Below, in pieces: positions 14,087 through 22,764 of a DNA stretch of 64,000 nucleotides (position 1 is its first letter; each line of letters opens with the position of its first letter). Under the pieces are notes generated by a model. That model was not told the DNA's origin, made no database searches, and worked only from the letters and a program-made list of their open reading frames with translations. The stretch is taken from the NCBI GenBank assembly GCA_963699755.1, contig CAVOVB010000005.1, positions 64,001-128,000 of the forward strand. The letters run 5' to 3'. The position numbers and the translations under genes are program-made. Source of the DNA: an uncultured delta proteobacterium (GTDB lineage Bacteria; Myxococcota_A; Polyangia; Polyangiales; Houyiibacteriaceae).

Positions 14087-15081
14087 TCAGGTTTGCGTAC
14101 ACAGGGCGTCTCCTCCCAACATCGCCTCGCGGAGCTCGTTGCGGTGAATGCGTGCGGCGCCGAGTGCATCCTGGTACTCGCGCCAAAGCCGGTCATCGAG
14201 CAGTCGTTCAAGCGGCCGTTTCTCGTAGGTCTTCACTTGGTCTGGGCCCGGGACGAAATCGCCGTATCGCTCGCAGAGCCGCTCCTTGGACCATCGGGGC
14301 CCCAACGCCGATGCTTTGCACACCAGATTGGGCCTGGTCGCGTCCATAATCGCTAGCCCGTTCCCGCGCCGCGCCATGCGGACTCCGAAACGCTTCAGCT
14401 CCTCATGGAGAGCCTCCACGACCCGATGCGGTCAAGCGACTTGGCTTCGCCGATGTTCCTCCGTGCCCAACGGGCGAAACCCACATCAAGGAGCCGCTTA
14501 GCCTCGAGCACCGTGTTCCTCCGTGCCCAACGGGCGAAACTCTCGATGCCCCGGTGCGCCTGGAAGTCGCGGGGCTGGTGGCTCCGGGAACGACCTACCG
14601 TCCGGTCCACCCTGCGGAGGCCAAGCTCCTCTTCGAGCGCGGTCGCAAGGGCCTGAAACGCACGGATGGCCTGGTACGGGTGATGGATCTTCAGCGTGTC
14701 CAGATGGATCTTGTTCACCGCCACATGAAGATGCTCGTGCTCCTGCTCGCTATGACGCGCCACGGTGTATTGGTGCTCTCCGAGCCCTGCCGCCCCCACT
14801 GCCCGGGAAACGACATCCTCGAGCTCCGCCGGCGTCAGGCGCCGGTCCTCTGCGTGAAACGAGATGACCAGGTGATGGGTCTTGTTGCCCTTGGCCCTCA
14901 CATTGCCTTGTTGAAGCAGTTCGCCTACCTCGACCGCAAGCTCGGCGTCCTCCTGTCGATACAGGCCCTCGAGGTTCCCGGCCGTGTACCGGGCCTTGTG
15001 CTCGGTCAGGGCCTTCTTGAGCAAGCCCCTGCACCGGTAGATAGTGAGCCGCGCTCCACGCTTGTCGAGGGCCGATCTCAC
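14087..15081 (-). pseudogene. TraI/MobA(P)-type relaxase, frameshifted (~14420) and truncated
   Basis: KTHHLVISF and HQYTVARHSEQEHEHLHVAVNKIH (HUH) motifs; the next frame continues LHEELKRFGV..RRGNGL..KASAL; 27-bp duplication at 14454-14480/14514-14540. Confidence 0.8.
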
Positions 15082-15509
15082 TCCGCGCGCGCGAATAAGC
15101 CGAAGGCGTTGCGCGCGTCAACCAGGTGCGGCAGCGCGAACGTCGAAGACGTCGCGCCCAGCGCCCCCAGCCTTGTTAGACAAGACTCCACCTTGCCTGA
15201 AAAACATGAGGACACAAAGCGGCAACGAGTGTCCAACGCCGACCAATATGGGCACATCTCGTCACAATGCGGCGGCCGCGGGCGAAGACTGTCCAAACCT
15301 GTCCTACTCGAACAGCATGGAACGAAGTTCGCCGAGCTTCGCCGGCAATCGACCAAGTTAGACAGAGTGCGTCAAACTAGAACGACAGGCTGCGACAGCG
15401 CACGCCAGAACGTCTGACGTGTTGGTGCGAAGAAACCGACGCGCCCGATTGCACCAAGAAAAGTGTTCCGTCCGTGCAACTTTTCAGGGGGCAAAACCGA
15501 TAACAGGGA

Positions 15510-15734
15510 ATGGCAGGTACGAGTCACAGCACGCATGTCGCCACCTGGCTGACTTACACGCAGGCGGCCACCTACACCGGTTGGTCGATCCCGCATCTAC
15601 GAACCCTCGTCTCGGGAGGCCAAATTCCGGTCTGCGGCCGGCCGCGCTTGCGCAGATTCCGTCGGGATATGTTGGACCTCTTCCTGACGAATCCGGACAT
15701 GGCGATGCGGAAGCTCCTCTCAGAAGGGAACTGA
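15510..15734 (+). CDS. Excisionase-like HTH_17 protein
   Basis: WLTYTQAATYTGWS..LRTLVSGGQIP..RRFRRDMLDLF, immediately upstream of the integrase. Confidence 0.8.
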   Translation: MAGTSHSTHVATWLTYTQAATYTGWSIPHLRTLVSGGQIPVCGRPRLRRFRRDMLDLFLTNPDMAMRKLLSEGN

Positions 15735-15738
15735 ATGC

Positions 15739-16811
15739 ATCGCCGTTAGAAGACTAGACAAGTCATGGCAATGCGACTTCACGATCGAAGGCCACGGACG
15801 CCGGCGCAAAGCTGGTTTGCAAACCAAGGCCGAAGCGCGGGAAGCCGAACGACGACAACGCGAAGAGCTCATCTCTGGGCAAAGCGCTTTCTCATGAAGG
15901 ACGCGTTCAGGATGTGCCTGTCCGCCACCACGATGAAGCCTGGCAGCCGAGACAACTGCACGCGCTTCTGGCGCGAGCTCGAGTCGCAGATCGGGCGCCT
16001 GTACATCGAGCAAGTCGACACCTCGGTGATCGACGAGCTCAAGGCAGGCTTGCCAACACACCTCGGACCGGAGTCGATCAACAACCGCCTCAAGATCGTG
16101 CGGGCGGTGCTCCGGTTCATGTGAAAACGAGGGCACTTGAAATCGGTGCCCTACGTGCCGATGGAGAGTGCACCGGAACCGGCCATCGACTGGTATGCGG
16201 AAGAGGAGCGAGACCGGCTGCTCCGAGGCATGTTCGACATGTTCCCCCAATGGTACGCGTTCTTCTACCTGACGACCCGGCTTGGTCTTCGCACGGGCGA
16301 AGTCTATGCGATCGCGCGAGATCGAATCCGGAACATTCCCCCGCAGCTCATCGTCTATCGGGCGGTGCAACGGGGCAACAAAGAACGGCCCGCCATGCTT
16401 GGGCCGCGCAAGAACAACAAGGTGCTGACCCTCGCCCTCACCGAGGACCTGGTCGACGCCATTCGTTGGCACATCCAGCAAGGGTACGCGGGCCCGGAGT
16501 TCCTGTTCAGCAAGGACGGGACCTTCCCCACGCGCATCTACTCCCACGCGAGGCCCTTGCGAATCGTGCAACGAGCCCTGGGCCTCCGGGAAATCGGCCA
16601 CCACCAGGTCGGCAGGCATTCGGTGGCCAGCCAAGCCGCGACCGGAGGTCACTCCATCAAGACGATTCAGGCGCAGCTCGGGCACAAGTCGGCCAAGAGC
16701 ACACATCAGTACGCCCACCTTGGGCAGCGGGCGCAGCTTCGAATCGTTAAGGCCCTGCGGCCTGCCTCACCGCCTCACGTCAACGTCAGGTCAACGAGCG
16801 AAAATCGGTAG
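15739..16811 (+). pseudogene. Tyrosine recombinase/phage integrase with frameshift (~15880) and in-frame TGA (16122)
   Basis: N-terminal RRKAGLQTKAEAREAE; catalytic GLRTGE, K, HQVGRH, LGH, HQY motifs. Confidence 0.85.
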
Positions 16812-16867
16812 CTGCCCCCGAATGCTGCAAGCACCGGGAATCACGCCCCAATCGCGGGCGCCCGATT

Positions 16868-16902
16868 AAGAAAGGGGCGACCCGGCACGGATCGCCCCTT
16901 TT
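16868..16902 (-). terminator. Intrinsic terminator closing the candidate ncRNA (possibly bidirectional)
   Basis: Minus strand AAAGGGGCGATCC-GTGCC-GGGTCGCCCCTTT followed by CTT; the stem has a U-G pair that forms only on the minus strand. Confidence 0.7.
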
Positions 16903-17449
16903 GGAAGCTCGCTAACCTCGCGACGAGAAACTCGTCGCTGGGCTTGGTGCATGCGTATACGTCGCACGCACCACGACCGACTTTGTCTGGACTTCGAGCG
17001 CGAGGCTCGATGGTGGGCCTATTAAGCCCTTCCTGCTTTGCGCGACACGTTTCGGCGCGATGCGTTCCCCGTCGGGAAGCCTGCTAACCCCCCGCATGAG
17101 CTGTTGGACTCACTGGAGGAGCTTTGACCGACACGTCCCGTGCGCTGACGTCGTACCTCTCGACACGAATGTTTCGAGATACCAAAGACTCGCATAGGTC
17201 GCCCTATGCTCTTCGTTTGGACAGAGTCCCAGCAACGGTTTGGGTTTAGCAAACCATCGTGATTGGACTCCGCGACGACTCTCGCCGTACCTGAACCCTT
17301 GGTTTTCGGCTATCCAAGGGCGCGTATGGGGAAGCGCTTCTGGCGGATCCGATGGCTCATGCCGCACTACGCCACCGCCGGAGCTTTCGCTCTCGGTGCG
17401 GGGCTGGTGCGCAGCATGTTCAGGCCGACGCGTGCAATCCAGAGTTTTG

Positions 17450-17461
17450 GTTTTCAAAGAT
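17450..17461 (-). promoter_or_regulatory. boxA-like antitermination motif 2
   Basis: ATCTTTGAAAAC, matching rrn boxA-type (GT/AT)TCTTTGAAAA. Confidence 0.55.
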
Positions 17462-17918
17462 GGGCACCCGAACCTCGTGAGATTACCGTCACCGGTTCCG
17501 AACCGGCTTGTAGACGGTGAGGCGACGGTGTCACCCCGTCGCGCTCGCTTTGGCGGGCCCTCGTTCCGCCGAAACGGACGAGCACCGAACCGCTGACGCG
17601 CCGTCACGACCATCGGTCAGCCCTAGTGCCAGGCACCTCCGACGGCTCGTCAAGAATCTTCGCGCCCACCCGATGGTGAAACCAAGCGGTGCCCCGATTC
17701 TAGCGCGCCTTCCACCGTTGCCCTTCGCGTCGCCAGCCATCGTCAAGCTCTCGCTCGACTCTAACCCACGCATCAGACCAACGGCTTTTGCAATACTCAC
17801 GACCCACGGACACGTTCGGCGTTCTCGACGCCTTCCGACTGCGCGACCTTTCGGCCTCGCCCCTCGCCCCGTGAGAGTGAGAAACAGCAACTTGCGTTGC
17901 TGTCGTCAGATGGGTTGA

Positions 17919-17928
17919 TTCAAAGAAC
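17919..17928 (-). promoter_or_regulatory. boxA-like antitermination motif 1
   Basis: GTTCTTTGAA at the 5' end of the structured region. Confidence 0.55.
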
Positions 17929-18001
17929 GTCCGAGCTCGCTGTCGCGATCTTCCGATCCCTCTTGTCACCGATCCGCCGGTCCAGATCAACGAAATTCGC
18001 C

Positions 18002-18059
18002 TGTGGAAAAGATGTTTCTTTTTCCACAAGCAAAGCGCATTGCGCCCAAATCATCCACA
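18002..18059. promoter_or_regulatory. Cluster of three DnaA-box-like 9-mers
   Basis: TGTGGAAAA (18002-18010) and TTTTCCACA (18020-18028) fit TTWTNCACA; TCATCCACA (18051-18059) has one mismatch. Confidence 0.5.
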
Positions 18060-18091
18060 GGAGGCCGCAGAATCAAAATAGCGTTTTGATT

Positions 18092-20368
18092 TCAGGGCGC
18101 GGAGGTGACGGGGACCGTTGCGGTGTTCATGGGGATCGCCGCTGGCGCGGTCGAGGGCATGCCCGCTTCGGAGCTTGCCGGAGCAAGGTCCGCAGTCGTC
18201 GCCGGCAACGGTCCCATGGGATCCATCGGGTCGTTGGAGTCAGGCAAGAGCGTCGGCGCTTCGAGAGGCGCGTCGAAATCGAATGGCTTCACTCGAGGAG
18301 TCAAGTTGCCGAAGCGGTCGACGCTCACCCATGCGCCGTCAGGCATCACGTACGCGCCGGCATCGCGATCGTAGCGCGGAAGGGCGACCTCAATCGGCTC
18401 TTTGACTTGGCCGCGAACTCGACCTGGAAGGACTTCGACATACAAGGGCTCATCGAGGACGAACTCGTAGCCGCCCTTGTCGAACTCCATGAGGTACGTT
18501 TCGTCTTCGAATTCGAATTCGCGTCGATAGTTCATCGGCTCCTGGCCCAAGCGCTGATGCGGGCGGTGCTCGAGGACGAACGACATCAAGCGAACAGCGA
18601 TGTGGTTGTGCATGCGGTGACAGCCGTGCGAGTGACGACGCATGATGCTCATGTAGTCGACCGAGCCGTGCGTTCGAATGCCCTCGTCCCCTCCGAGCTG
18701 GATCGTCCCGTCGGCGCCGCGATAGTACTTGCGGTGGTATGCGGCCACCAAGCCGTACGCGGACGCGTAGCTCGGGCCCGTCGTATGATAGTCGACCTCG
18801 AAATAATCTTCGCCCCGCTTGCGTCGCTTCGTGACCATCGTGCGCGGCGGCGTGCTTTCAGGCGGCACCCAAACCGGCGCGGCGGAGATGACGCTCCATG
18901 CGCGCTTGCCGACCGGCGAACCCTTGTACTTCAACATCACGACCCCATCGATGTAATCGCTGCGCCAACCGCCAACGGTGGTACCAAAACGCGCGAGCGG
19001 GATCTTCTGACCGTTGTAGTTGACCTGAATCGTGAGTCGCGGCCGGCGGTTGACCGGCTGGGAGCGTCCCTTGCCCTCCTCGTCGAAGGGGAATTCGTAC
19101 CAGACGTCACCCCGATCGATTGAAACGCTCAGGTCCATGGCATCGCTGTAGTACGGGGGCCGCTCGATGCCTTGGATCGCGACGATGTTTTCGGCAGGGA
19201 TTTCACCTAGCGACTGCAGCCAAGCATACGTCGACTCGGGCGTCTGGAGCCCGAACGCCTCGATGACGCGCTCGCGAAGCTCTGCTTCGAAGTTTGGAAT
19301 CTGCAGCTCACGGCCGTCCTCGGCCTCGTAGGTTCGCGGCTCACCGTTGCTCAGAAACGAGGTGCTGCCGTCTTCGATCACCTCGGCGGCATGCATCGCT
19401 CGTTCGGTCAACACACGGATCACGGCTTCCCGCTCCGTCTCCTGCGGGGTCTCTCGCAAGACAGCCAGGGTGTCTTTGCCGATGAAGCCCCAACCGTAGA
19501 CGCGATGCCGACGCTCGAACTCGGCGAGCGCCTCGTGGGTGCGCCAATCGAATAGACCGGGGGTGTGCTGGCCGCGACCTTCGAAAAAGCCTTCGCACTC
19601 GAGTCGAGCCTGGGCAGCGATGATCGCCTCAATCTGGGGAGCAAGCGTTCTGTACTCCTCGACCTTCTCCCATTCGTCCTGGTCCGCGGTTTGAGCGCGA
19701 GTGACCTGATCGAGGCTTTCGACCTGGGCACGCTCGACGAGCGCGGCCATCTTCGGCTTCAGCAGCTGGTAGCGAGCAAGGCGACGCGCGGGGCGGCGGC
19801 CCTTCTCATATGCCAAAAACCCCTGGAACTCCTGAAGCGGCACCAGGTCGAGCTGCTCCGCGCATTCGAGCGCGCGGACCTCGGCGAAGCGCTGCCTCAT
19901 CAAGGTCACGGTCGGCAAGATGCCGTAAAGCTCCAAGTACTCGTCCTTCTTGGCGCGATACCCGTGGCGGTCGTCTGGAAACTCGCCGCGCGCCAGGGCT
20001 AAGTAGGTCGCACGGTATTCGCTGGGCTTGGGCTCCTCGTCGGCGGAAGAAGCCTCCGTGAGAATGTAGGGTGTCCAGTCTTCGCCCAGGTTCAGCAGAA
20101 GCTGACCTTCTTCGTCCGCCTTGGCGGCATCGACCTCGCCCTCGGTCTTGCCGTCCTTCCAGAACGCCACAGGAGCCTCGAGCGCCGCAGGCTGAGGGTC
20201 CCCCCTGCGAGCCGAAGGCGACGCGGGTTTGGCATCGCTCCCCATGGGAGCTGTGACAGGATCCTGCTTCGGTGTGCAGCCGCAAAAGACTAGACAGCCG
20301 AGGACAGGCAATAACCCCAGGCGCAAATGTACCACGACTCGAACACCTTGGAGCGGAACGGGGCGCAA
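18092..20368 (-). CDS. L,D-transpeptidase (YkuD) family lipoprotein with PG-binding-like region
   Basis: IRTHGS...HSHGCHRMHN catalytic motif; FDWRTHEALAEFE PG-binding-like helix; N-terminal Cys lipobox. Confidence 0.8.
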   Translation of the reverse strand: MRPVPLQGVRVVVHLRLGLLPVLGCLVFCGCTPKQDPVTAPMGSDAKPASPSARRGDPQPAALEAPVAFWKDGKTEGEVDAAKADEEGQLLLNLGEDWTPYILTEASSADEEPKPSEYRATYLALARGEFPDDRHGYRAKKDEYLELYGILPTVTLMRQRFAEVRALECAEQLDLVPLQEFQGFLAYEKGRRPARRLARYQLLKPKMAALVERAQVESLDQVTRAQTADQDEWEKVEEYRTLAPQIEAIIAAQARLECEGFFEGRGQHTPGLFDWRTHEALAEFERRHRVYGWGFIGKDTLAVLRETPQETEREAVIRVLTERAMHAAEVIEDGSTSFLSNGEPRTYEAEDGRELQIPNFEAELRERVIEAFGLQTPESTYAWLQSLGEIPAENIVAIQGIERPPYYSDAMDLSVSIDRGDVWYEFPFDEEGKGRSQPVNRRPRLTIQVNYNGQKIPLARFGTTVGGWRSDYIDGVVMLKYKGSPVGKRAWSVISAAPVWVPPESTPPRTMVTKRRKRGEDYFEVDYHTTGPSYASAYGLVAAYHRKYYRGADGTIQLGGDEGIRTHGSVDYMSIMRRHSHGCHRMHNHIAVRLMSFVLEHRPHQRLGQEPMNYRREFEFEDETYLMEFDKGGYEFVLDEPLYVEVLPGRVRGQVKEPIEVALPRYDRDAGAYVMPDGAWVSVDRFGNLTPRVKPFDFDAPLEAPTLLPDSNDPMDPMGPLPATTADLAPASSEAGMPSTAPAAIPMNTATVPVTSAP

Positions 20369-20475
20369 CGCAAGTTTCGCACTGGCCCGGCGGAGGCTCG
20401 GCCTTGCCGTTTTGTTGAGGACCCCCGCATGGGTGACTCATCCTTACAGTTCCCCACTTCGTACAGAGGCAGGCA

Positions 20476-22764
20476 ATGGGTAACCCGGGCACCGTCCCTT
20501 TTCTTCTGAATCAACTGAGACCGGTCGGAAAAGGCGGCGCGGCGCTGACTCGAGCGGCCGCGTCGATTGCGCTTTCCAGCGGCGAACCGCAGACACTTGT
20601 CGACATTCTGCATGGTCGTGCCTTCCGCTACTACGCCGAAGGGCTGCGTCAGTACCTCGCCATTCGAACCGGGTCCACCGAACGGGCCGATCAGTACCTC
20701 ACCAAGCTTCGCGCCTACGTCGCCAAGACCGAGAGCGATGAGCTCCTCCAGGAGCCCGGTGTTCGTGCCCGACTGTACCGAGCCGCACGCGGATACGTGC
20801 ACGACCAGAGCCGCCCCCAAGACGCTCCTCGCAAAGAAGTCCTCGAAGGACTGCCTTGGCGCGCCCTTCCATCCGCGCATCACTCGGCCAGCCCACTCAA
20901 CGGCCTGCGCTTCGACCTCAGCGCCGAAGATTCGGAGCTTCTGGAGCTCCGCCATGCGCGTGAGCTCAGCATCGAAGAGCTGGCGTTCGTGTATGGCAAG
21001 ACGTCAAAAGAGATAGAAGCGAACCTCGATGCCGCGATGGCACAGGCACAGCTCATTCTCGACGAGCACGGCATCTGCGACGCCGGTCGCTTTGGCCGTA
21101 TCATCATCGAAGCATTCGCTCTCGAAGCGGCGCCCAGAACGCGGGGTGAAGAGAACGAAAGCGTCGAGCCTCTGCCCAACGGAACGATTGTCGGCGGTCG
21201 ATACTCCATCGAGGCGCGGGTAGGACTCGGCGCGTTTGGCGACGTGTATCGAGCCAAAGACACCGAAGTGCCGGGCCACGTCGTCGCACTGAAGCTGTTG
21301 CACCACCCGGCGCACTCGAAGTCGGCCAAGCAATCAGCGCTTCGGGAGCTCCGCCTCATCGCCTCGGTGTTCCACCCATCGATCGTGCAGTTCAAAGACC
21401 ACGGCTGGTTCGAGGAGCGGCTTTGGTTCGTCATGCCCTGGTACGACGGCGAGACCCTCGAGTCGCGCCTGCAACGCGAACCGCTGAGTCGCGCCGAGGC
21501 GCTCTCGATCTTTCGGCCGCTCGCCCGTGCGCTCGGCGCGATGCACGCTGCAGGTGTGCGTCACCAAGACGTGAAGCCGGAAAACATCTTCCTCGCACGG
21601 ATTCCCGGTTTCGGCCAAGAGGAAGTCACGCCCGTGCTTCTCGATCTCGGTGTCGCCGCGACCGAAGCGGAGATGGTAGTGGCTGGAACGCCGACCTACT
21701 TCGCGCCCGAGGTAGCCGCGCAGTTCGCGTCGGTCGAAAGCAAGCCGGCGGTCAGCAACAAAGCGGACGTCTTCGCGCTGGCTCTCTCGCTCCGAAACGC
21801 TCTCGAGCCCGAGACACAAGAGGATGTTGCTGCAGGTGCAGTCGAAACGTTCATCGAATACCGAGCGAAGGAGACCCCCTGTGCGCCGAGCCGCAAAGGG
21901 CTCAAGTACCTCGGACCTTTCTTCAATCGTTGGCTGAGCCCGGATGCGACCGAGCGGCCCACGGCCGAGGAGTTTGCCGAAGAGCTCTCCGCCCTATCGC
22001 TTCCCGAAGAGCGACGCGAGCGGGTCAAGACCATCTTGCGTTGGACGATTCCGATGGCGCTCGCCCTGCTCGGGGCGTCGGGCGCGGCCGTGACCGTTTT
22101 CTATCAGAAAGCGGAAACCCAGCGCGAAGTTGCGCAGCAGGCAAAGCTGACCGCCTCCGACCTTCGCCGGGATCTCGCAGACACGCGTGAGATCGCCGAA
22201 CAGCTGGAGCTCCGCTACGAGCAAAGCAGGCTGACGCGAACGGAGCTGGCCAAGCGCCTCGCGCGCACGGACGGCAAGGTCGCTGCCCTGAAGACGCAGC
22301 TCAAAGACCAGGAGCGACGTCTCGCGCGGACCCGCGAACAGCTCGCCCAGAACCGGCAAGAGAAGGCCACTATCGAGCAGCACCTCGCGGAAACCGAACG
22401 AGACCTCTCGGCGACCGAACGAACGCTTGCAGCATCGAACCAGAAGCTCGCCTCGATCAAGCAGGCGCTGGTCGCGGAGGAAGAAAGGGGTGAGCGTCTC
22501 GAGCGCAAGCTCGATCGCGAAGCTGAGCGGAGGTTGGAGCTGCAAGGTGAAATCGCTGCGCTCGACGCACGGCTGAGCGCCGAGGCGTCGAAGACCGAAG
22601 AGCTTCAAGACGCGGTCGCACGCGCCGTGTCCGCGCGTAGCCGCGCCGAGCTCGAGCTCGAGTTTGCCCAAGAAGAGCTCGAGGCCCTCCGCAATCGCTC
22701 GGTGCCGCACGCGCCCGAGTCAGAATCAGCCCCTTCGGGCGACGAGTCGACTCCAGGCAGCTGA
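20476..22764 (+). CDS. Ser/Thr protein kinase with N-terminal sigma70 region-4-like domain, TM helix and C-terminal coiled coil
   Basis: GLGAFGDVY, VALK, HQDVKPEN, DLG, GTPTYFAPE; LSAEDSELLELRHARELSIEELAFVYG upstream. Confidence 0.85.
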   Translation: MGNPGTVPFLLNQLRPVGKGGAALTRAAASIALSSGEPQTLVDILHGRAFRYYAEGLRQYLAIRTGSTERADQYLTKLRAYVAKTESDELLQEPGVRARLYRAARGYVHDQSRPQDAPRKEVLEGLPWRALPSAHHSASPLNGLRFDLSAEDSELLELRHARELSIEELAFVYGKTSKEIEANLDAAMAQAQLILDEHGICDAGRFGRIIIEAFALEAAPRTRGEENESVEPLPNGTIVGGRYSIEARVGLGAFGDVYRAKDTEVPGHVVALKLLHHPAHSKSAKQSALRELRLIASVFHPSIVQFKDHGWFEERLWFVMPWYDGETLESRLQREPLSRAEALSIFRPLARALGAMHAAGVRHQDVKPENIFLARIPGFGQEEVTPVLLDLGVAATEAEMVVAGTPTYFAPEVAAQFASVESKPAVSNKADVFALALSLRNALEPETQEDVAAGAVETFIEYRAKETPCAPSRKGLKYLGPFFNRWLSPDATERPTAEEFAEELSALSLPEERRERVKTILRWTIPMALALLGASGAAVTVFYQKAETQREVAQQAKLTASDLRRDLADTREIAEQLELRYEQSRLTRTELAKRLARTDGKVAALKTQLKDQERRLARTREQLAQNRQEKATIEQHLAETERDLSATERTLAASNQKLASIKQALVAEEERGERLERKLDREAERRLELQGEIAALDARLSAEASKTEELQDAVARAVSARSRAELELEFAQEELEALRNRSVPHAPESESAPSGDESTPGS

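What the first reader, a model, noticed from the sequence alone, without database searches (positions are those of the whole stretch)
16868..17930. Candidate novel ~1-kb structured non-coding RNA on the minus strand
Seen on the minus strand: ACAGCAAC-GCAA-GTTGCTGT (17884-17903), GGCC-GAAA-GGTC (17845-17856), GTCGAGC-GAGA-GCTTGAC (17742-17759), a GTGA-capped stem (~17522-17542), GAGC-GAAA-GCTC (17381-17392) nested in CATGCTGCGC/GTGCGGCATG, ACGGC-GAGA-GTCGT (17275-17288), GCATAGG-GCGA-CCTATGC (17192-17209), UUCG loops (~17159-17178, ~17560-17582) and CCCTTGG/CCAAGGG (17296-17320). Long-range helices: AACCCA/TGGGTT (17911-17916/17763-17768) and TCTGGATT/AGTCCAGA (17436-17443/16986-16993). Mismatches repeatedly resolve as G-U only on this strand, there is no credible ORF, and a terminator ends it. 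I could not find hallmarks of rRNA, tmRNA, RNase P, SRP or group I/II introns. Inference: a large ornate RNA in the size class of GOLLD/ROOL/OLE but possibly a new family.
Basis: partly seen in the sequence, partly recalled or inferred. Interest (0 to 1): 0.9.

Follow-up and report, generated by a model that had tools for sequence, protein, structure and literature searches.

The report
Giant structured RNA of sediment myxobacteria
This is a gene of about 1,100 bases that makes a heavily folded, very abundant RNA instead of a protein; it is shared by uncultured sediment myxobacteria, matches no known RNA family, and may be an unrecognised piece of basic cell machinery.

Summary
Window ~17955..16868 (minus strand) is a single-copy gene for a ~1,088-nt structured non-coding RNA.

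- **Not coding:** there is no codon periodicity, and the one long ORF is broken in 28 of 29 relatives.
- **Structure:** 299 consensus pairs are 96.9% paired. 92 pairs show compensatory changes, against 41±4 in shuffles. The folding z-score is -7.0.
- **Known families:** Rfam 15 gives no hit. RNase P RNA, tmRNA and SRP RNA lie elsewhere in the genome.
- **Expression:** contigs from RNA libraries of four studies cover it at high k-mer depth.
- **Distribution:** blastn finds it in 49 of 54 genomes of the genus. A conserved core junction, 5' motif and terminator identify diverged versions of about 1.5-2.3 kb in other genera and four other families of the same myxobacterial order. An 8-bp long-range helix takes six different sequences, each with its exact complement.
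- **Promoter:** an array of DnaA boxes sits upstream. It is the only such cluster in this genome.
- **3' end:** the terminator is an attachment site for integrase-bearing islands.

The function is unknown. My best guess is a stable housekeeping RNA (RNP scaffold, ribozyme core or RNA-only assembly) whose synthesis is controlled by DnaA. No paper describing it turned up in six literature searches.

The parts
16868..17955 (-). Gene for the large structured non-coding RNA (~1,088 nt)
   Evidence: The conserved block ends at 16868, where synteny breaks. The 5' motif CGGAAGATCGCG is conserved across families. RNA-library contigs reach 17942-17945 and 16910. No codon periodicity.
18051..18059 (-). 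DnaA box (TGTGGATGA on the RNA strand; 1 mismatch to TTATCCACA)
   Evidence: Genome-wide box scan.
18020..18028 (-). DnaA box (TGTGGAAAA on the RNA strand)
   Evidence: Invariant in 29 of 29 aligned relatives (A1 columns 23-31).
18002..18010 (+). DnaA box in inverted orientation (TTTTCCACA on the RNA strand), forming a palindrome with the previous box
   Evidence: The stem never varies while the spacer does (helix 2), which points to a DNA or protein-binding constraint rather than an RNA one.
17963..17990 (-). Putative promoter: -35 TTGATC (17990-17985), 16-nt variable spacer, -10 TGACAA (17968-17963)
   Evidence: The hexamers are conserved and the spacer is variable in A1. Other families have the same layout with TTGCAC and TATAGA/CATAAA/TAGTAT. 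Read by eye; the sigma-70 scan did not call it.
17944..17955 (-). Conserved 5'-terminal motif CGGAAGATCGCG
   Evidence: CG(G/A)AAG(G/A)TCGC(G/T) sits at the equivalent place in g29 and in families f5, f13 and f23 by regular expression, and in g42 and f22 by eye.
17796..17904 (-). 5' domain: GCAA hairpin (helix 6) and the invariant CUCACUCUCACGGGG/UCCGUGGGUCGUGAG helix 7 enclosing the GAAA hairpin (helix 8). Site of a ~90-nt expansion in four relatives.
   Evidence: The insertion is at A1 columns 228-311 in L026, L027, L028 and L030.
17485..17785 (-). Second domain (helices 11-25), including the GUGA-type hairpin helix 23 (17546-17519) that covaries across families
17436..17479 (-). Core junction, 5' side: CACGAGG..CGGGUGCCCAUCUUUGAAAA-linker-UCUGGAUU, followed by GCACGCGUC. 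This is the most widely conserved sequence of the family.
   Evidence: GGGTG, TCTTTGAAAA, TGCA and GTC are invariant in the 16-sequence cross-family alignment A4. This region was used as the search pattern.
16977..16993 (-). Core junction, 3' side: AGUCCAGA-CAAAGUCGG, pairing with 17436-17443 and 17455-17463
   Evidence: Helices 27 and 28. The partner covaries: AGCCTACC (g42), A(A/G)CCCACG (g29), AGTCCACA, AGCCCACA, GACTCACG.
17283..17430 (-). Third domain (helices 29-34), peripheral and variable
   Evidence: RNA-library contigs of two studies join 17311 to 17409.
17147..17279 (-). Fourth domain (helices 35-39), with the GCUAAAC-loop hairpin and the GCGA hairpin
17040..17143 (-). Fifth domain (helices 40-42), the best-conserved within the genus. 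It holds the hairpin GGCUUCCC-GACG-GGGAACGC.
   Evidence: model R1. The hairpin keeps pairing through changes in G008.
16915..16967 (-). 3' tail hairpins, including the GACGUA-loop hairpin (16967-16951)
   Evidence: All 6 pairs of the GACGUA hairpin have compensatory changes in the cross-family alignment A3.
16868..16898 (-). Intrinsic terminator GGGGCGAUCCGUGCCGGGUCGCCCC + U-tract. Its last ~24-28 nt also act as the attachment site of integrative islands.
   Evidence: The terminator is conserved in sequence with compensatory changes across families. It is directly repeated at the far end of 8.9-kb and 16-kb islands in G026 and G096. Synteny breaks at 16867-16873 in many relatives.
15765..16811 (+). 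Tyrosine integrase gene converging on the RNA 3' end, broken by one in-frame stop at 16122-16124
   Evidence: Pfam Phage_integrase on 16137-16811. It is 69-76% identical to the intact 361-aa integrase of G026. The stop is reported.
14395..15081 (-). MobA/VirD2 relaxase fragment (228 aa, against 504 aa in G026): remnant of an integrative mobilisable element
   Evidence: Pfam Relaxase, E = 4.7e-23.
18092..20368 (-). Upstream neighbour: a 758-aa lipoprotein-like L,D-transpeptidase (weak PG-binding and YkuD hits)
   Evidence: Orthologues lie directly upstream of the RNA in g1, g29, g42, f5, f13 and f23.

Best explanation
SHOWN: This is an independent gene for a large, stable, trans-acting structured RNA of a family not described before.
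- It has its own promoter and a conserved intrinsic terminator.
- It folds into five or more domains closed by long-range helices around a conserved, partly single-stranded core junction (..GGGUGCCCAUCUUUGAAAA..UCUGGAUU-GCAnnCGUC.. pairing with ..AGUCCAGA-CAAAG..).
- It is present at high k-mer depth in RNA libraries.
- It is kept as a single copy in nearly all genomes of the genus.
- It exists in enlarged forms (estimated ~1.5-2.3 kb) in other genera and families of the same order. A conserved core with variable peripheral expansions is the pattern seen in RNase P RNA and rRNA.

INFERRED (function): The RNA is the scaffold or catalytic core of a housekeeping particle (an RNP or an RNA-only assembly), with the invariant junction as its working centre. 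The array of DnaA boxes just upstream of the promoter lets DnaA, the replication initiator and a known transcription factor, tie its synthesis to the replication and growth state.

INFERRED (attachment site): Because the gene is conserved and its 3' hairpin hardly varies, tyrosine integrases of mobilisable islands use that hairpin as their attachment site, as they do with tRNA and tmRNA genes.
For: Non-coding:
- Variability by codon phase is 0.124/0.126/0.125.
- The 167-aa ORF is broken in 28 of 29 relatives.

Structure:
- 299 pairs in 52 helices, with 96.9% of cells paired.
- 92 pairs have compensatory changes, against 41.0±3.8 in 500 shuffles (0 of 500 reach the observed value) and 26-36 in slid controls.
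- Strand asymmetry: -297.8 against -156.1 kcal/mol.
- Folding z-score -7.0.

RNA-library presence:
- 20 RNA runs of 16 studies hold 36-57% of its 31-mers.
- Contigs of 4 studies cover 16910-17945 with summed k-mer depth up to 1.3e3, 6.6e3 and 4e4.

Conservation:
- blastn finds it in 49 of 54 genus genomes.
- It is single-copy in its own genome.

Wider family:
- The core pattern occurs in g29, g38 and g42 and in families f5, f13, f22 and f23. The reversed-pattern controls gave 1 hit in 401 genomes and 0 in 267.
- The 8-bp long-range helix takes six different sequences, each with an exact complement 0.45-1.3 kb downstream.
- In the 3' tail, 13 of 16 pairs have compensatory changes across families.

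DnaA boxes:
- Of 174 boxes (<=1 mismatch) in 5.35 Mb, the only 400-bp window holding 3 is 18002-18059.
- In G116, G058 and G040 the only 3-box arrays genome-wide lie at this RNA's promoter.
- In G067 a comparable array sits upstream of an ORF that looks like a class II ribonucleotide reductase gene, a classic DnaA-regulated gene (identified by eye).

Attachment site.
Against: - No experiment or strand-specific read shows the transcript, its ends or its stability. Contigs cannot show strand, and the summed depth includes related organisms.
- The function is pure inference. No partner protein is known, and the conserved neighbour is a periplasmic-type L,D-transpeptidase with no RNA link.
- The DnaA boxes could instead mark the replication origin.
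- The core pattern was not found in the largest family of the order (f17, 0 of 186 genomes at >=95% completeness) or outside the order. It is therefore not universal housekeeping machinery.
- blastn finds nothing in 5 of 54 genus genomes. In 3 of these the neighbouring gene is cut by a contig end.
- The promoter hexamers were read by eye; the consensus scan found no sigma-70 site.
Confidence: 0.55

Rival explanations
1. The DnaA-box array, with the A/T-rich stretch next to it, is the chromosomal replication origin (oriC). The RNA gene is an origin-embedded or origin-adjacent transcription unit. Its strong transcription helps open the origin, or the RNA itself acts in initiation or origin organisation.
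For: - This is the only cluster of DnaA boxes in the genome. The dnaA-dnaN region has a single box.
- It is the only 3-box array genome-wide in three genomes of three other families.
- In the other families the boxes are in one orientation at 10-13-bp spacing and are followed by an A/T-rich segment.
- GC skew is flat in this genome, so no other origin signal competes. For Sorangium the origin could only be predicted weakly, with a non-consensus box (PMC2650636, whole text read).
Against: - dnaA lies 1.1 Mb away on the same contig in G026.
- No GC-skew or gene-orientation switch is visible at the locus.
- The intergenic space in this genus is only ~140 bp.
- A similar array in G067 sits upstream of a ribonucleotide-reductase-like gene, showing that such arrays also mark ordinary DnaA-regulated promoters.
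- I recognised no DnaA-trio or clear unwinding element.
Confidence: 0.18
2. The RNA works without proteins as a self-assembling homo-oligomer (cage or dimer), like GOLLD, ROOL and OLE in cryo-EM. The GNRA tetraloops would serve as inter-subunit contacts.
For: - Many GNRA-type loops (GCAA, GAAA, GAGA, GCGA, GUGA) cap conserved helices.
- Its size and ornateness exceed those RNAs.
- Cryo-EM found all three known ornate RNAs to be homo-oligomers (PMC12286853, abstract seen in the search listing).
Against: - No palindromic kissing loops were looked for or seen.
- GOLLD and ROOL are (from recall) linked to phages and mobile elements, while this gene is chromosomal, syntenic and single-copy.
- Nothing in silico tests quaternary structure.
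Confidence: 0.12
3. It is a long structured 3' UTR or cis-acting element of the upstream L,D-transpeptidase gene. The two would be co-transcribed and processed, with the RNA controlling that gene.
For: It has the same strand as that gene and sits immediately downstream of it in g1, g29, g42, f5, f13 and f23.
Against: - A conserved promoter-like region, the DnaA boxes and a conserved 5' motif lie between the gene and the RNA.
- In other families the two are ~1.1 kb apart.
- In G085 the RNA core is on a different contig from the orthologue.
- In f22 the upstream gene is different.
Confidence: 0.04
4. It is the RNA of a mobile or selfish element (a degenerate group II intron, retroelement RNA or guide RNA of the adjacent integrative element), or a diverged member of a known Rfam family that the models missed.
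For: An integrase and a relaxase lie next to it in this window. Large structured RNAs are often mobile-element products.
Against: - It is single-copy.
- Its position next to the same chromosomal gene is fixed, whether or not an island is present.
- The islands begin after its 3' end and differ in cargo.
- No reverse transcriptase or ORF lies inside it.
- It has no match in the plasmid or phage collections.
- It has no Rfam hit even at E<=10 here, or at E<=0.1 in six relatives apart from one sub-threshold sRNA hit over a terminator.
Confidence: 0.04

Closest known systems
OLE RNA (ornate, large, extremophilic) of anaerobic Firmicutes
   Same: Both are large, many-domain, lineage-restricted chromosomal ncRNAs that are very abundant and of housekeeping or stress-type rather than regulatory character. 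(The OLE properties are recalled; its dimer structure is from PMC12286853, abstract in a search listing.)
   Different: - There is no sequence or structure match (Rfam scans).
- This RNA is about 1.8 to 3.8 times longer (1.09-2.3 kb against about 0.6 kb, the latter recalled).
- It is found in Myxococcota.
- It is not in an operon with membrane-protein partners.
- It has a DnaA-box promoter array and serves as an integrase target.
GOLLD and ROOL RNAs
   Same: Same class of size and ornateness, with many GNRA-capped helices and an unknown biochemical function.
   Different: Those RNAs are typically carried by phages, prophages or plasmids (recalled). This one is a syntenic single-copy chromosomal gene with no Rfam match and no match in the phage or plasmid collections.
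RNase P RNA and rRNA, as models of how the family evolves
   Same: An invariant core junction is held by long-range helices, and peripheral domains expand or contract between lineages. The core-closing helix spans 0.45 kb here, 0.6-0.85 kb in g29 and four other families, and ~1.3 kb in g42.
   Different: It is not a member of either. The genome has its own RNase P RNA on another contig (300 bits), and there are no rRNA hits in the window. No catalytic activity is known.
tRNA and tmRNA genes as integration targets of genomic islands
   Same: - A tyrosine integrase gene lies directly beside the 3' end of the RNA gene.
- The island is bounded by a direct repeat of the gene's last 24-28 nt.
- Cargo differs between strains.
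   Different: The target is a terminator hairpin of a 1.1-kb RNA, not a tRNA-like acceptor/T-arm. ARAGORN finds no tRNA or tmRNA in the window.
DnaA-regulated promoters (nrd, dnaA and others) and DnaA-box clusters outside oriC (datA, the Bacillus clusters)
   Same: Several consensus DnaA boxes lie immediately upstream of a promoter.
   Different: The product is a giant ncRNA rather than a replication-related protein. Binding and its effect are untested. The DnaA regulon members are named from recall.

Membership tests
Any curated Rfam 15 family (including OLE, GOLLD, ROOL, HEARO, raiA, group I/II introns, RNase P, tmRNA, SRP, 6S, rRNAs) | Match to the family covariance model at or above its gathering score | tested here: not met
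   There were 0 matches at gathering score in the 64-kb window. In 16500-18300 at E<=10 only six chance-level hits of 13-19 bits appeared. Six relatives' loci at E<=0.1 gave only a 28-bit sub-threshold sRNA hit over a terminator.
RNase P RNA / tmRNA / SRP RNA (as a diverged replacement) | The genome lacks a canonical copy, so this RNA could stand in for it | tested here: not met
   Canonical copies are present elsewhere in the genome: RNase P at 300.5 bits, tmRNA at 166.1 bits and SRP at 66.9 bits. The 6S model found nothing, but it rings in only 5 of 14 control genomes.
Group II intron | Domain V hairpin with catalytic triad and 3'-side bulge; 5' GUGYG; often an intron-encoded reverse transcriptase; multiple copies | tested here: not met
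   There are no Rfam group II hits. No conserved ORF lies inside it. It is single-copy. The only candidate hairpin (helix 23) has a 5'-side bulge and a 7-nt loop (motif definition recalled).
Protein-coding gene or pseudogene | Three-base periodicity of substitutions and a conserved open frame | tested here: not met
   Variability by codon phase is 0.124/0.126/0.125. The frame is broken in 28 of 29 relatives.
Structured non-coding RNA gene (generic) | Compensatory base-pair changes beyond controls; strand-asymmetric folding; own promoter and terminator; presence in RNA libraries | tested here: met
   Searches cover structure. Searches cover the promoter and terminator (promoter read by eye). 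Searches cover RNA libraries (contigs only, no strand).
oriC (chromosomal replication origin) | DnaA-box cluster plus an unwinding element, a nucleotide-skew switch, and usually dnaA/dnaN nearby | tested here: inconclusive
   The box cluster is present and unique. Skew is uninformative. dnaA-dnaN lie elsewhere. No unwinding element was shown.
Integrase attachment site in an RNA gene (tRNA/tmRNA-like target) | Integrase next to the gene's 3' end, and a direct repeat of the 3' end at the far border of a variable island | tested here: met
   G026 has an 8.9-kb island and G096 a 16-kb island, each with a 361-aa integrase at the RNA end and a 24-28-nt repeat at the far end. In the window itself the integrase is broken and no distal repeat was found.

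The most novel reading that the evidence does not exclude
This is the RNA core of a so-far unknown housekeeping machine of Polyangiales myxobacteria: a ribozyme, RNP or RNA-only assembly of 1.1-2.3 kb, larger than any bacterial non-coding RNA I know of other than rRNA. It would be wired directly to the replication initiator DnaA, either as the most strongly DnaA-boxed promoter of the genome or as a gene built into the chromosome origin itself. That would link a giant structured RNA to the bacterial cell cycle.
Probability: 0.25. Interest if true: 0.95.

Novelty: categorically new. Interest (0 to 1): 0.86.

Why it matters
Very few large structured bacterial RNAs of unknown function are known (OLE, GOLLD, ROOL, raiA), and each has opened a line of structural and functional work.

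This one stands out on several counts:
- It is longer than any of those (1.1 kb here, up to an estimated 2.3 kb in relatives).
- It is among the RNAs that assemble at high depth from sediment metatranscriptomes.
- Its evolution, a conserved core with lineage-specific expansions, is typical of catalytic or scaffold RNAs.
- It is the only such RNA I know of that sits behind an array of DnaA boxes. That makes a link between a giant RNA and replication control, or the still unlocated origin of these skew-less genomes, directly testable.
- It adds a new class of RNA gene to the short list of integrase targets. This explains why assemblies of these organisms break at this locus.

Tried and rejected
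- **Plasmid and phage collections:** blastn ('distant' mode) found no match.
- **Covariance model R1** (3' core domain, 172 positions): 46 of 54 genus genomes matched, but 0 of 33 genomes of the other 17 genera of the family. It is too genus-specific, and the wider family was only found through synteny and the core motif.
- **nhmmer with the A1 profile:** on 20 loci downstream of the neighbour's orthologues it gave only weak hits (E 0.03-0.16). I used these as leads, not as evidence.
- **18-mer scan of 185,579 species' genomes:** 70 loci, of which 40 carry the R1 domain. The other 30 (Arthrobacter, Alistipes, Bradyrhizobium and others) are chance matches.
- **Distal attachment-site repeat in the window:** none was found with <=3 mismatches or by short-word blast.
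- **GC skew for locating the origin:** flat (about ±0.01), so uninformative.
- **RNA-library contigs on the flanks** (15500-16835 and 18005-20500): next to no cover in the four runs.
- **Joint 17311->17409 in contigs of two studies:** this may be a shorter natural variant of the third domain or a diverged relative. Not resolved.
- **G067 arrays:** the one on C141 is a coding repeat, not DnaA boxes.
- **Alignment A4:** its left half is poorly aligned by MAFFT, so I built no second model.
- **Earlier notes of this scan:** nothing on this locus or on similar sequence.
- **Literature searches**: no paper describing this RNA.
- **The neighbour as an RNA-binding partner:** rejected. It is a lipoprotein-type L,D-transpeptidase.
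Full report
**What is there.** Between the stop codon of a 758-aa gene (18092) and a synteny break at 16868 lies a 1.2-kb stretch with no credible gene.
- The one long ORF (17110-17613, minus strand) is not conserved. In 28 of 29 aligned relatives it is broken by length changes not divisible by three or by 2-9 stops; only L007 keeps it.
- Substitutions show no three-base periodicity: variability by phase is 0.124/0.126/0.125.
- The sequence is single-copy in its own genome.

**Structure.** I aligned 30 sequences (the window plus 29 relatives at 73-90% identity; A1).
- RNAalifold predicts 299 pairs in 52 helices.
- On that alignment 96.9% of cells are standard pairs.
- 92 pairs carry compensatory double changes, against 41.0±3.8 in 500 column shuffles (0 of 500 reach the observed value) and 26-36 when partners are slid by 1-3 columns.
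- The consensus energy is -297.8 kcal/mol on the minus strand and -156.1 on the complement.
- The single-sequence MFE of 17956..16868 is -517.4 kcal/mol against -450.6±9.5 for 40 dinucleotide shuffles, z = -7.0. The other strand gives z = -3.9.
- Three elements were tested separately. One is supported, one is consistent but competes with alternative pairings, and AACCCA/TGGGTT is inconclusive.

**Ends and expression.** Conservation starts near 18040 and stops at 16868.
- Upstream of the RNA lie conserved hexamers, TTGATC (17990-17985) and TGACAA (17968-17963), around a variable 16-nt spacer. I read this promoter by eye; the consensus scan did not call it.
- The RNA then begins with CGGAAGATCGCG (17955-17944). 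This motif recurs at the same place in all other lineages.
- The 3' end is a G+C-rich hairpin with a U-tract (16898-16868).
- Twenty RNA libraries from 16 studies of sediment, estuary and aquatic samples hold 36-57% of the element's 31-mers.
- Logan contigs of four runs from four studies cover 16910-17945 with summed k-mer depths up to about 1.3e3, 6.6e3 and 4e4. Two contigs end at 17942 and 17945.
- Contigs show presence in RNA libraries, not the strand or exact ends, and the depth sums related organisms.

**Anatomy.**
- A 5' domain (17904-17796), with an invariant 13-pair helix enclosing GNRA hairpins.
- A second domain (17785-17485).
- The core junction (17479-17436).
- Three domains (17430-17283, 17279-17147, 17143-17040) enclosed by the long-range helices 17463-17455/16985-16977 and 17443-17436/16993-16986.
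- Two tail hairpins, then the terminator.
- Four relatives carry a ~90-nt expansion in the 5' domain (A1 columns 228-311).

**Distribution.**
- *Genus:* blastn finds the RNA in 49 of 54 genomes of the genus and in none of 33 genomes of the 17 other genera of the family. In the 'relatives' draw of 61 genomes it was also found in none of 24 genomes from other families of the order. A covariance model of the 3' core gave the same picture: 46 of 54 and 0 of 33.
- *The five genus genomes without a match:* three have the neighbouring gene cut at a contig end.
- *Synteny lead:* the 758-aa neighbour has orthologues in all 18 genera of the family. Downstream of them, on the same strand, genera g29 and g42 carry the core motif CGGGUGC..UCUUUGAAAA-linker-[8 nt]-UGCA-NN-CGUC.
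- *Order, first pattern:* a pattern for this motif over 401 genomes of the order hit g1 (41 of 54), g29 (2 of 2) and g42 (2 of 3), plus one genome each in families f5, f13, f22 and f23. The reversed-pattern control hit once, and one extra hit in G009 does not look like the motif.
- *Order, second pattern:* over 267 genomes of at least 95% completeness it added genus g38 and found nothing in f17 (0 of 186), with no control hits.
- *Phylum:* in 301 genomes, the only hit outside the order does not resemble the motif.

**Proof of homology.** The 8-nt 5' strand of the long-range helix differs between lineages, and each has an exact complement downstream, next to the partner of the adjoining helix.

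| Lineage | 5' strand | 3' partner | Distance between strands |
|---|---|---|---|
| g1 | TCTGGATT | AGTCCAGA | ~0.45 kb |
| g42 | GGTAGGCT | AGCCTACC | ~1.3 kb |
| g29 | TGTGGGTT | A(A/G)CCCACG | 0.7-0.8 kb |
| f13 | TGTGGACT | AGTCCACA | 0.66 kb |
| f23 and f5 | TGTGGGCT | AGCCCACA | 0.6-0.7 kb |
| f22 | CGTGAGTT | GACTCACG | 0.85 kb |

- The 3' tails align across families. In that alignment 13 of 16 predicted pairs have compensatory changes, covering the GACGUA-loop hairpin and the terminator.
- From the 5' motif to the terminator I estimate lengths of about 1.09 kb (g1), 1.5-1.9 kb (g29), 1.8 kb (f5, f13, f23), 2.1 kb (f22) and 2.3 kb (g42) (by eye).
- None of these loci matches an Rfam family.
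- Record titles of the loci found by the 18-mer scan name Myxococcota, Myxococcales or Polyangiales MAGs.

**DnaA boxes.** In the other families the promoter is preceded by 3-5 copies of TGTGGA(T/A)AA, the reverse complement of the DnaA-box consensus TTATCCACA. They lie in one orientation at 10-13-bp spacing and are followed by an A/T-rich stretch and the -35 element.
- In this window the boxes are TGTGGATGA (18059-18051), TGTGGAAAA (18028-20) and an inverted TTTTCCACA (18010-02).
- Of 174 boxes with at most one mismatch in the 5.35-Mb genome, this is the only 400-bp window with three. The dnaA-dnaN region on another contig has one.
- In G116, G058 and G040 the only three-box arrays in the whole genome are at this RNA's promoter.
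- In G067 a similar array lies upstream of an ORF that looks like a class II ribonucleotide reductase (by eye). This shows that such arrays also mark ordinary DnaA-regulated promoters.
- GC skew is flat, so the origin cannot be placed. dnaA is 1.1 Mb from the RNA on one contig of G026.

**Attachment site.** Homology to relatives stops at 16867-16873 in many genomes.
- In G026 and G096 the RNA's 3' end is followed at once by a convergent 361-aa tyrosine integrase and then by different cargo: NikA plus a MobA relaxase in G026, and a GH94 glucan synthase, Usp and transporters in G096.
- After 8.9 and 16 kb respectively comes a direct repeat of the RNA's last 24-28 nt.
- In the window the integrase (15765-16811) is 69-76% identical to that of G026 but carries one in-frame stop. 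The relaxase is a 228-aa fragment, and no distal repeat remains. This is a decayed island.
- The variable island content next to the RNA gene would also explain why the RNA so often sits at the ends of short contigs in MAGs; that link is my inference.

**What it is not.**
- There is no Rfam family at gathering score in the window or at permissive thresholds in the region.
- There is no tRNA or tmRNA in the window.
- RNase P RNA, tmRNA and SRP RNA are present elsewhere in the genome.
- It has no plasmid or phage relatives.
- It is not multi-copy, and no ORF lies inside it.
- The conserved neighbour is a lipoprotein-type L,D-transpeptidase with no RNA link.

**How it most likely works.**
- *Shown:* it is an independently transcribed, terminator-ended, highly structured RNA that is abundant in RNA libraries. 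It has a conserved core with expandable periphery, DnaA boxes at the promoter, and a 3' end used as an integrase target.
- *Inferred:* it acts in trans as a stable scaffold or catalytic RNA, and DnaA sets its level. I put about 0.55 on this package.
- *Rivals:* about 0.18 that the box array is the replication origin; about 0.12 that the RNA is a protein-free homo-oligomer like GOLLD, ROOL or OLE. The cis-element, mobile-element and missed-family readings each get a few percent.

**Novelty.** The literature searches were SG8-38; large noncoding RNA + Myxococcota; Sorangium + oriC + DnaA box; GOLLD/ROOL/OLE since 2023; DnaA box + noncoding RNA + Myxococc; and large structured + noncoding RNA + metatranscriptome + covariation + sediment. 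None found a description of this RNA.
- Papers read:
  - PMC2650636, whole text.
  - The bioRxiv preprint 10.64898/2026.07.10.737566, passages only. It renames family SG8-38 as Houyiibacteriaceae; whether this genus belongs to that family is not shown here.
  - PMC12286853, abstract in the search listing only.
- Subscription journals and supplements were not searched.

**Limits.**
- The evidence for transcription comes from contigs, not reads.
- There is no R-scape statistic.
- The promoter, the lengths in other lineages and the ribonucleotide reductase call are by eye.
- The pattern searches need exact motifs, so they undercount the family.

Noticed in passing
window 14395-16811: A decayed integrative mobilisable element sits next to the RNA gene. 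Its tyrosine integrase has one in-frame stop (16122-16124), its MobA/VirD2 relaxase is cut to 228 aa, and no distal attachment repeat is found.
   Followed up: yes
L144 (G067:C18:~520-570): A three-box DnaA array lies upstream of an ORF whose translation looks like a class II (B12-dependent) ribonucleotide reductase. This suggests a recognisable DnaA regulon in these myxobacteria. The ORF was identified by eye, not tested with Pfam.
   Followed up: partly
L033 / L083 (G027:C105:31106-31277): An isolated ~170-nt copy of the RNA's fifth domain (R1 model, 67.6 bits) sits on a contig away from the neighbour gene in G027, and no full-length copy is assembled in that genome. It could be a fragment carried by a mobile element or a remnant.
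   Followed up: no
window 17311-17409: RNA-library contigs of two studies (X1, X4) join 17311 to 17409 and skip 97 nt of the third domain. This is either a natural shorter variant or a diverged relative.
   Followed up: no
G000, all contigs: The genome has almost no GC skew (±0.01 in 50-kb bins) except at two contig ends (C1 0-50 kb and C2 800-900 kb, +0.06 to +0.09). The replication origin therefore cannot be placed by skew.
   Followed up: partly
G000 whole genome: The Rfam 6S RNA model finds nothing in this 100%-complete genome. The model is insensitive (it rings in 5 of 14 control genomes), so this is not evidence of absence.
   Followed up: no
window 18070-18090: An A/T-rich inverted repeat, AAATCAAAACGCTATTTTGATT, lies directly after the stop codon of the 758-aa gene. 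It is not conserved in relatives (identity 0.46). It may be that gene's terminator or an unwinding-prone spot beside the DnaA boxes.
   Followed up: no
L145 (G067:C141:~540-590): GCTGTGGAC-type repeats that match the DnaA-array pattern are in fact a coding tandem repeat (Ala-Val-Asp-rich). This is a caveat for any pattern-based search for DnaA boxes in these G+C-rich genomes.
   Followed up: yes
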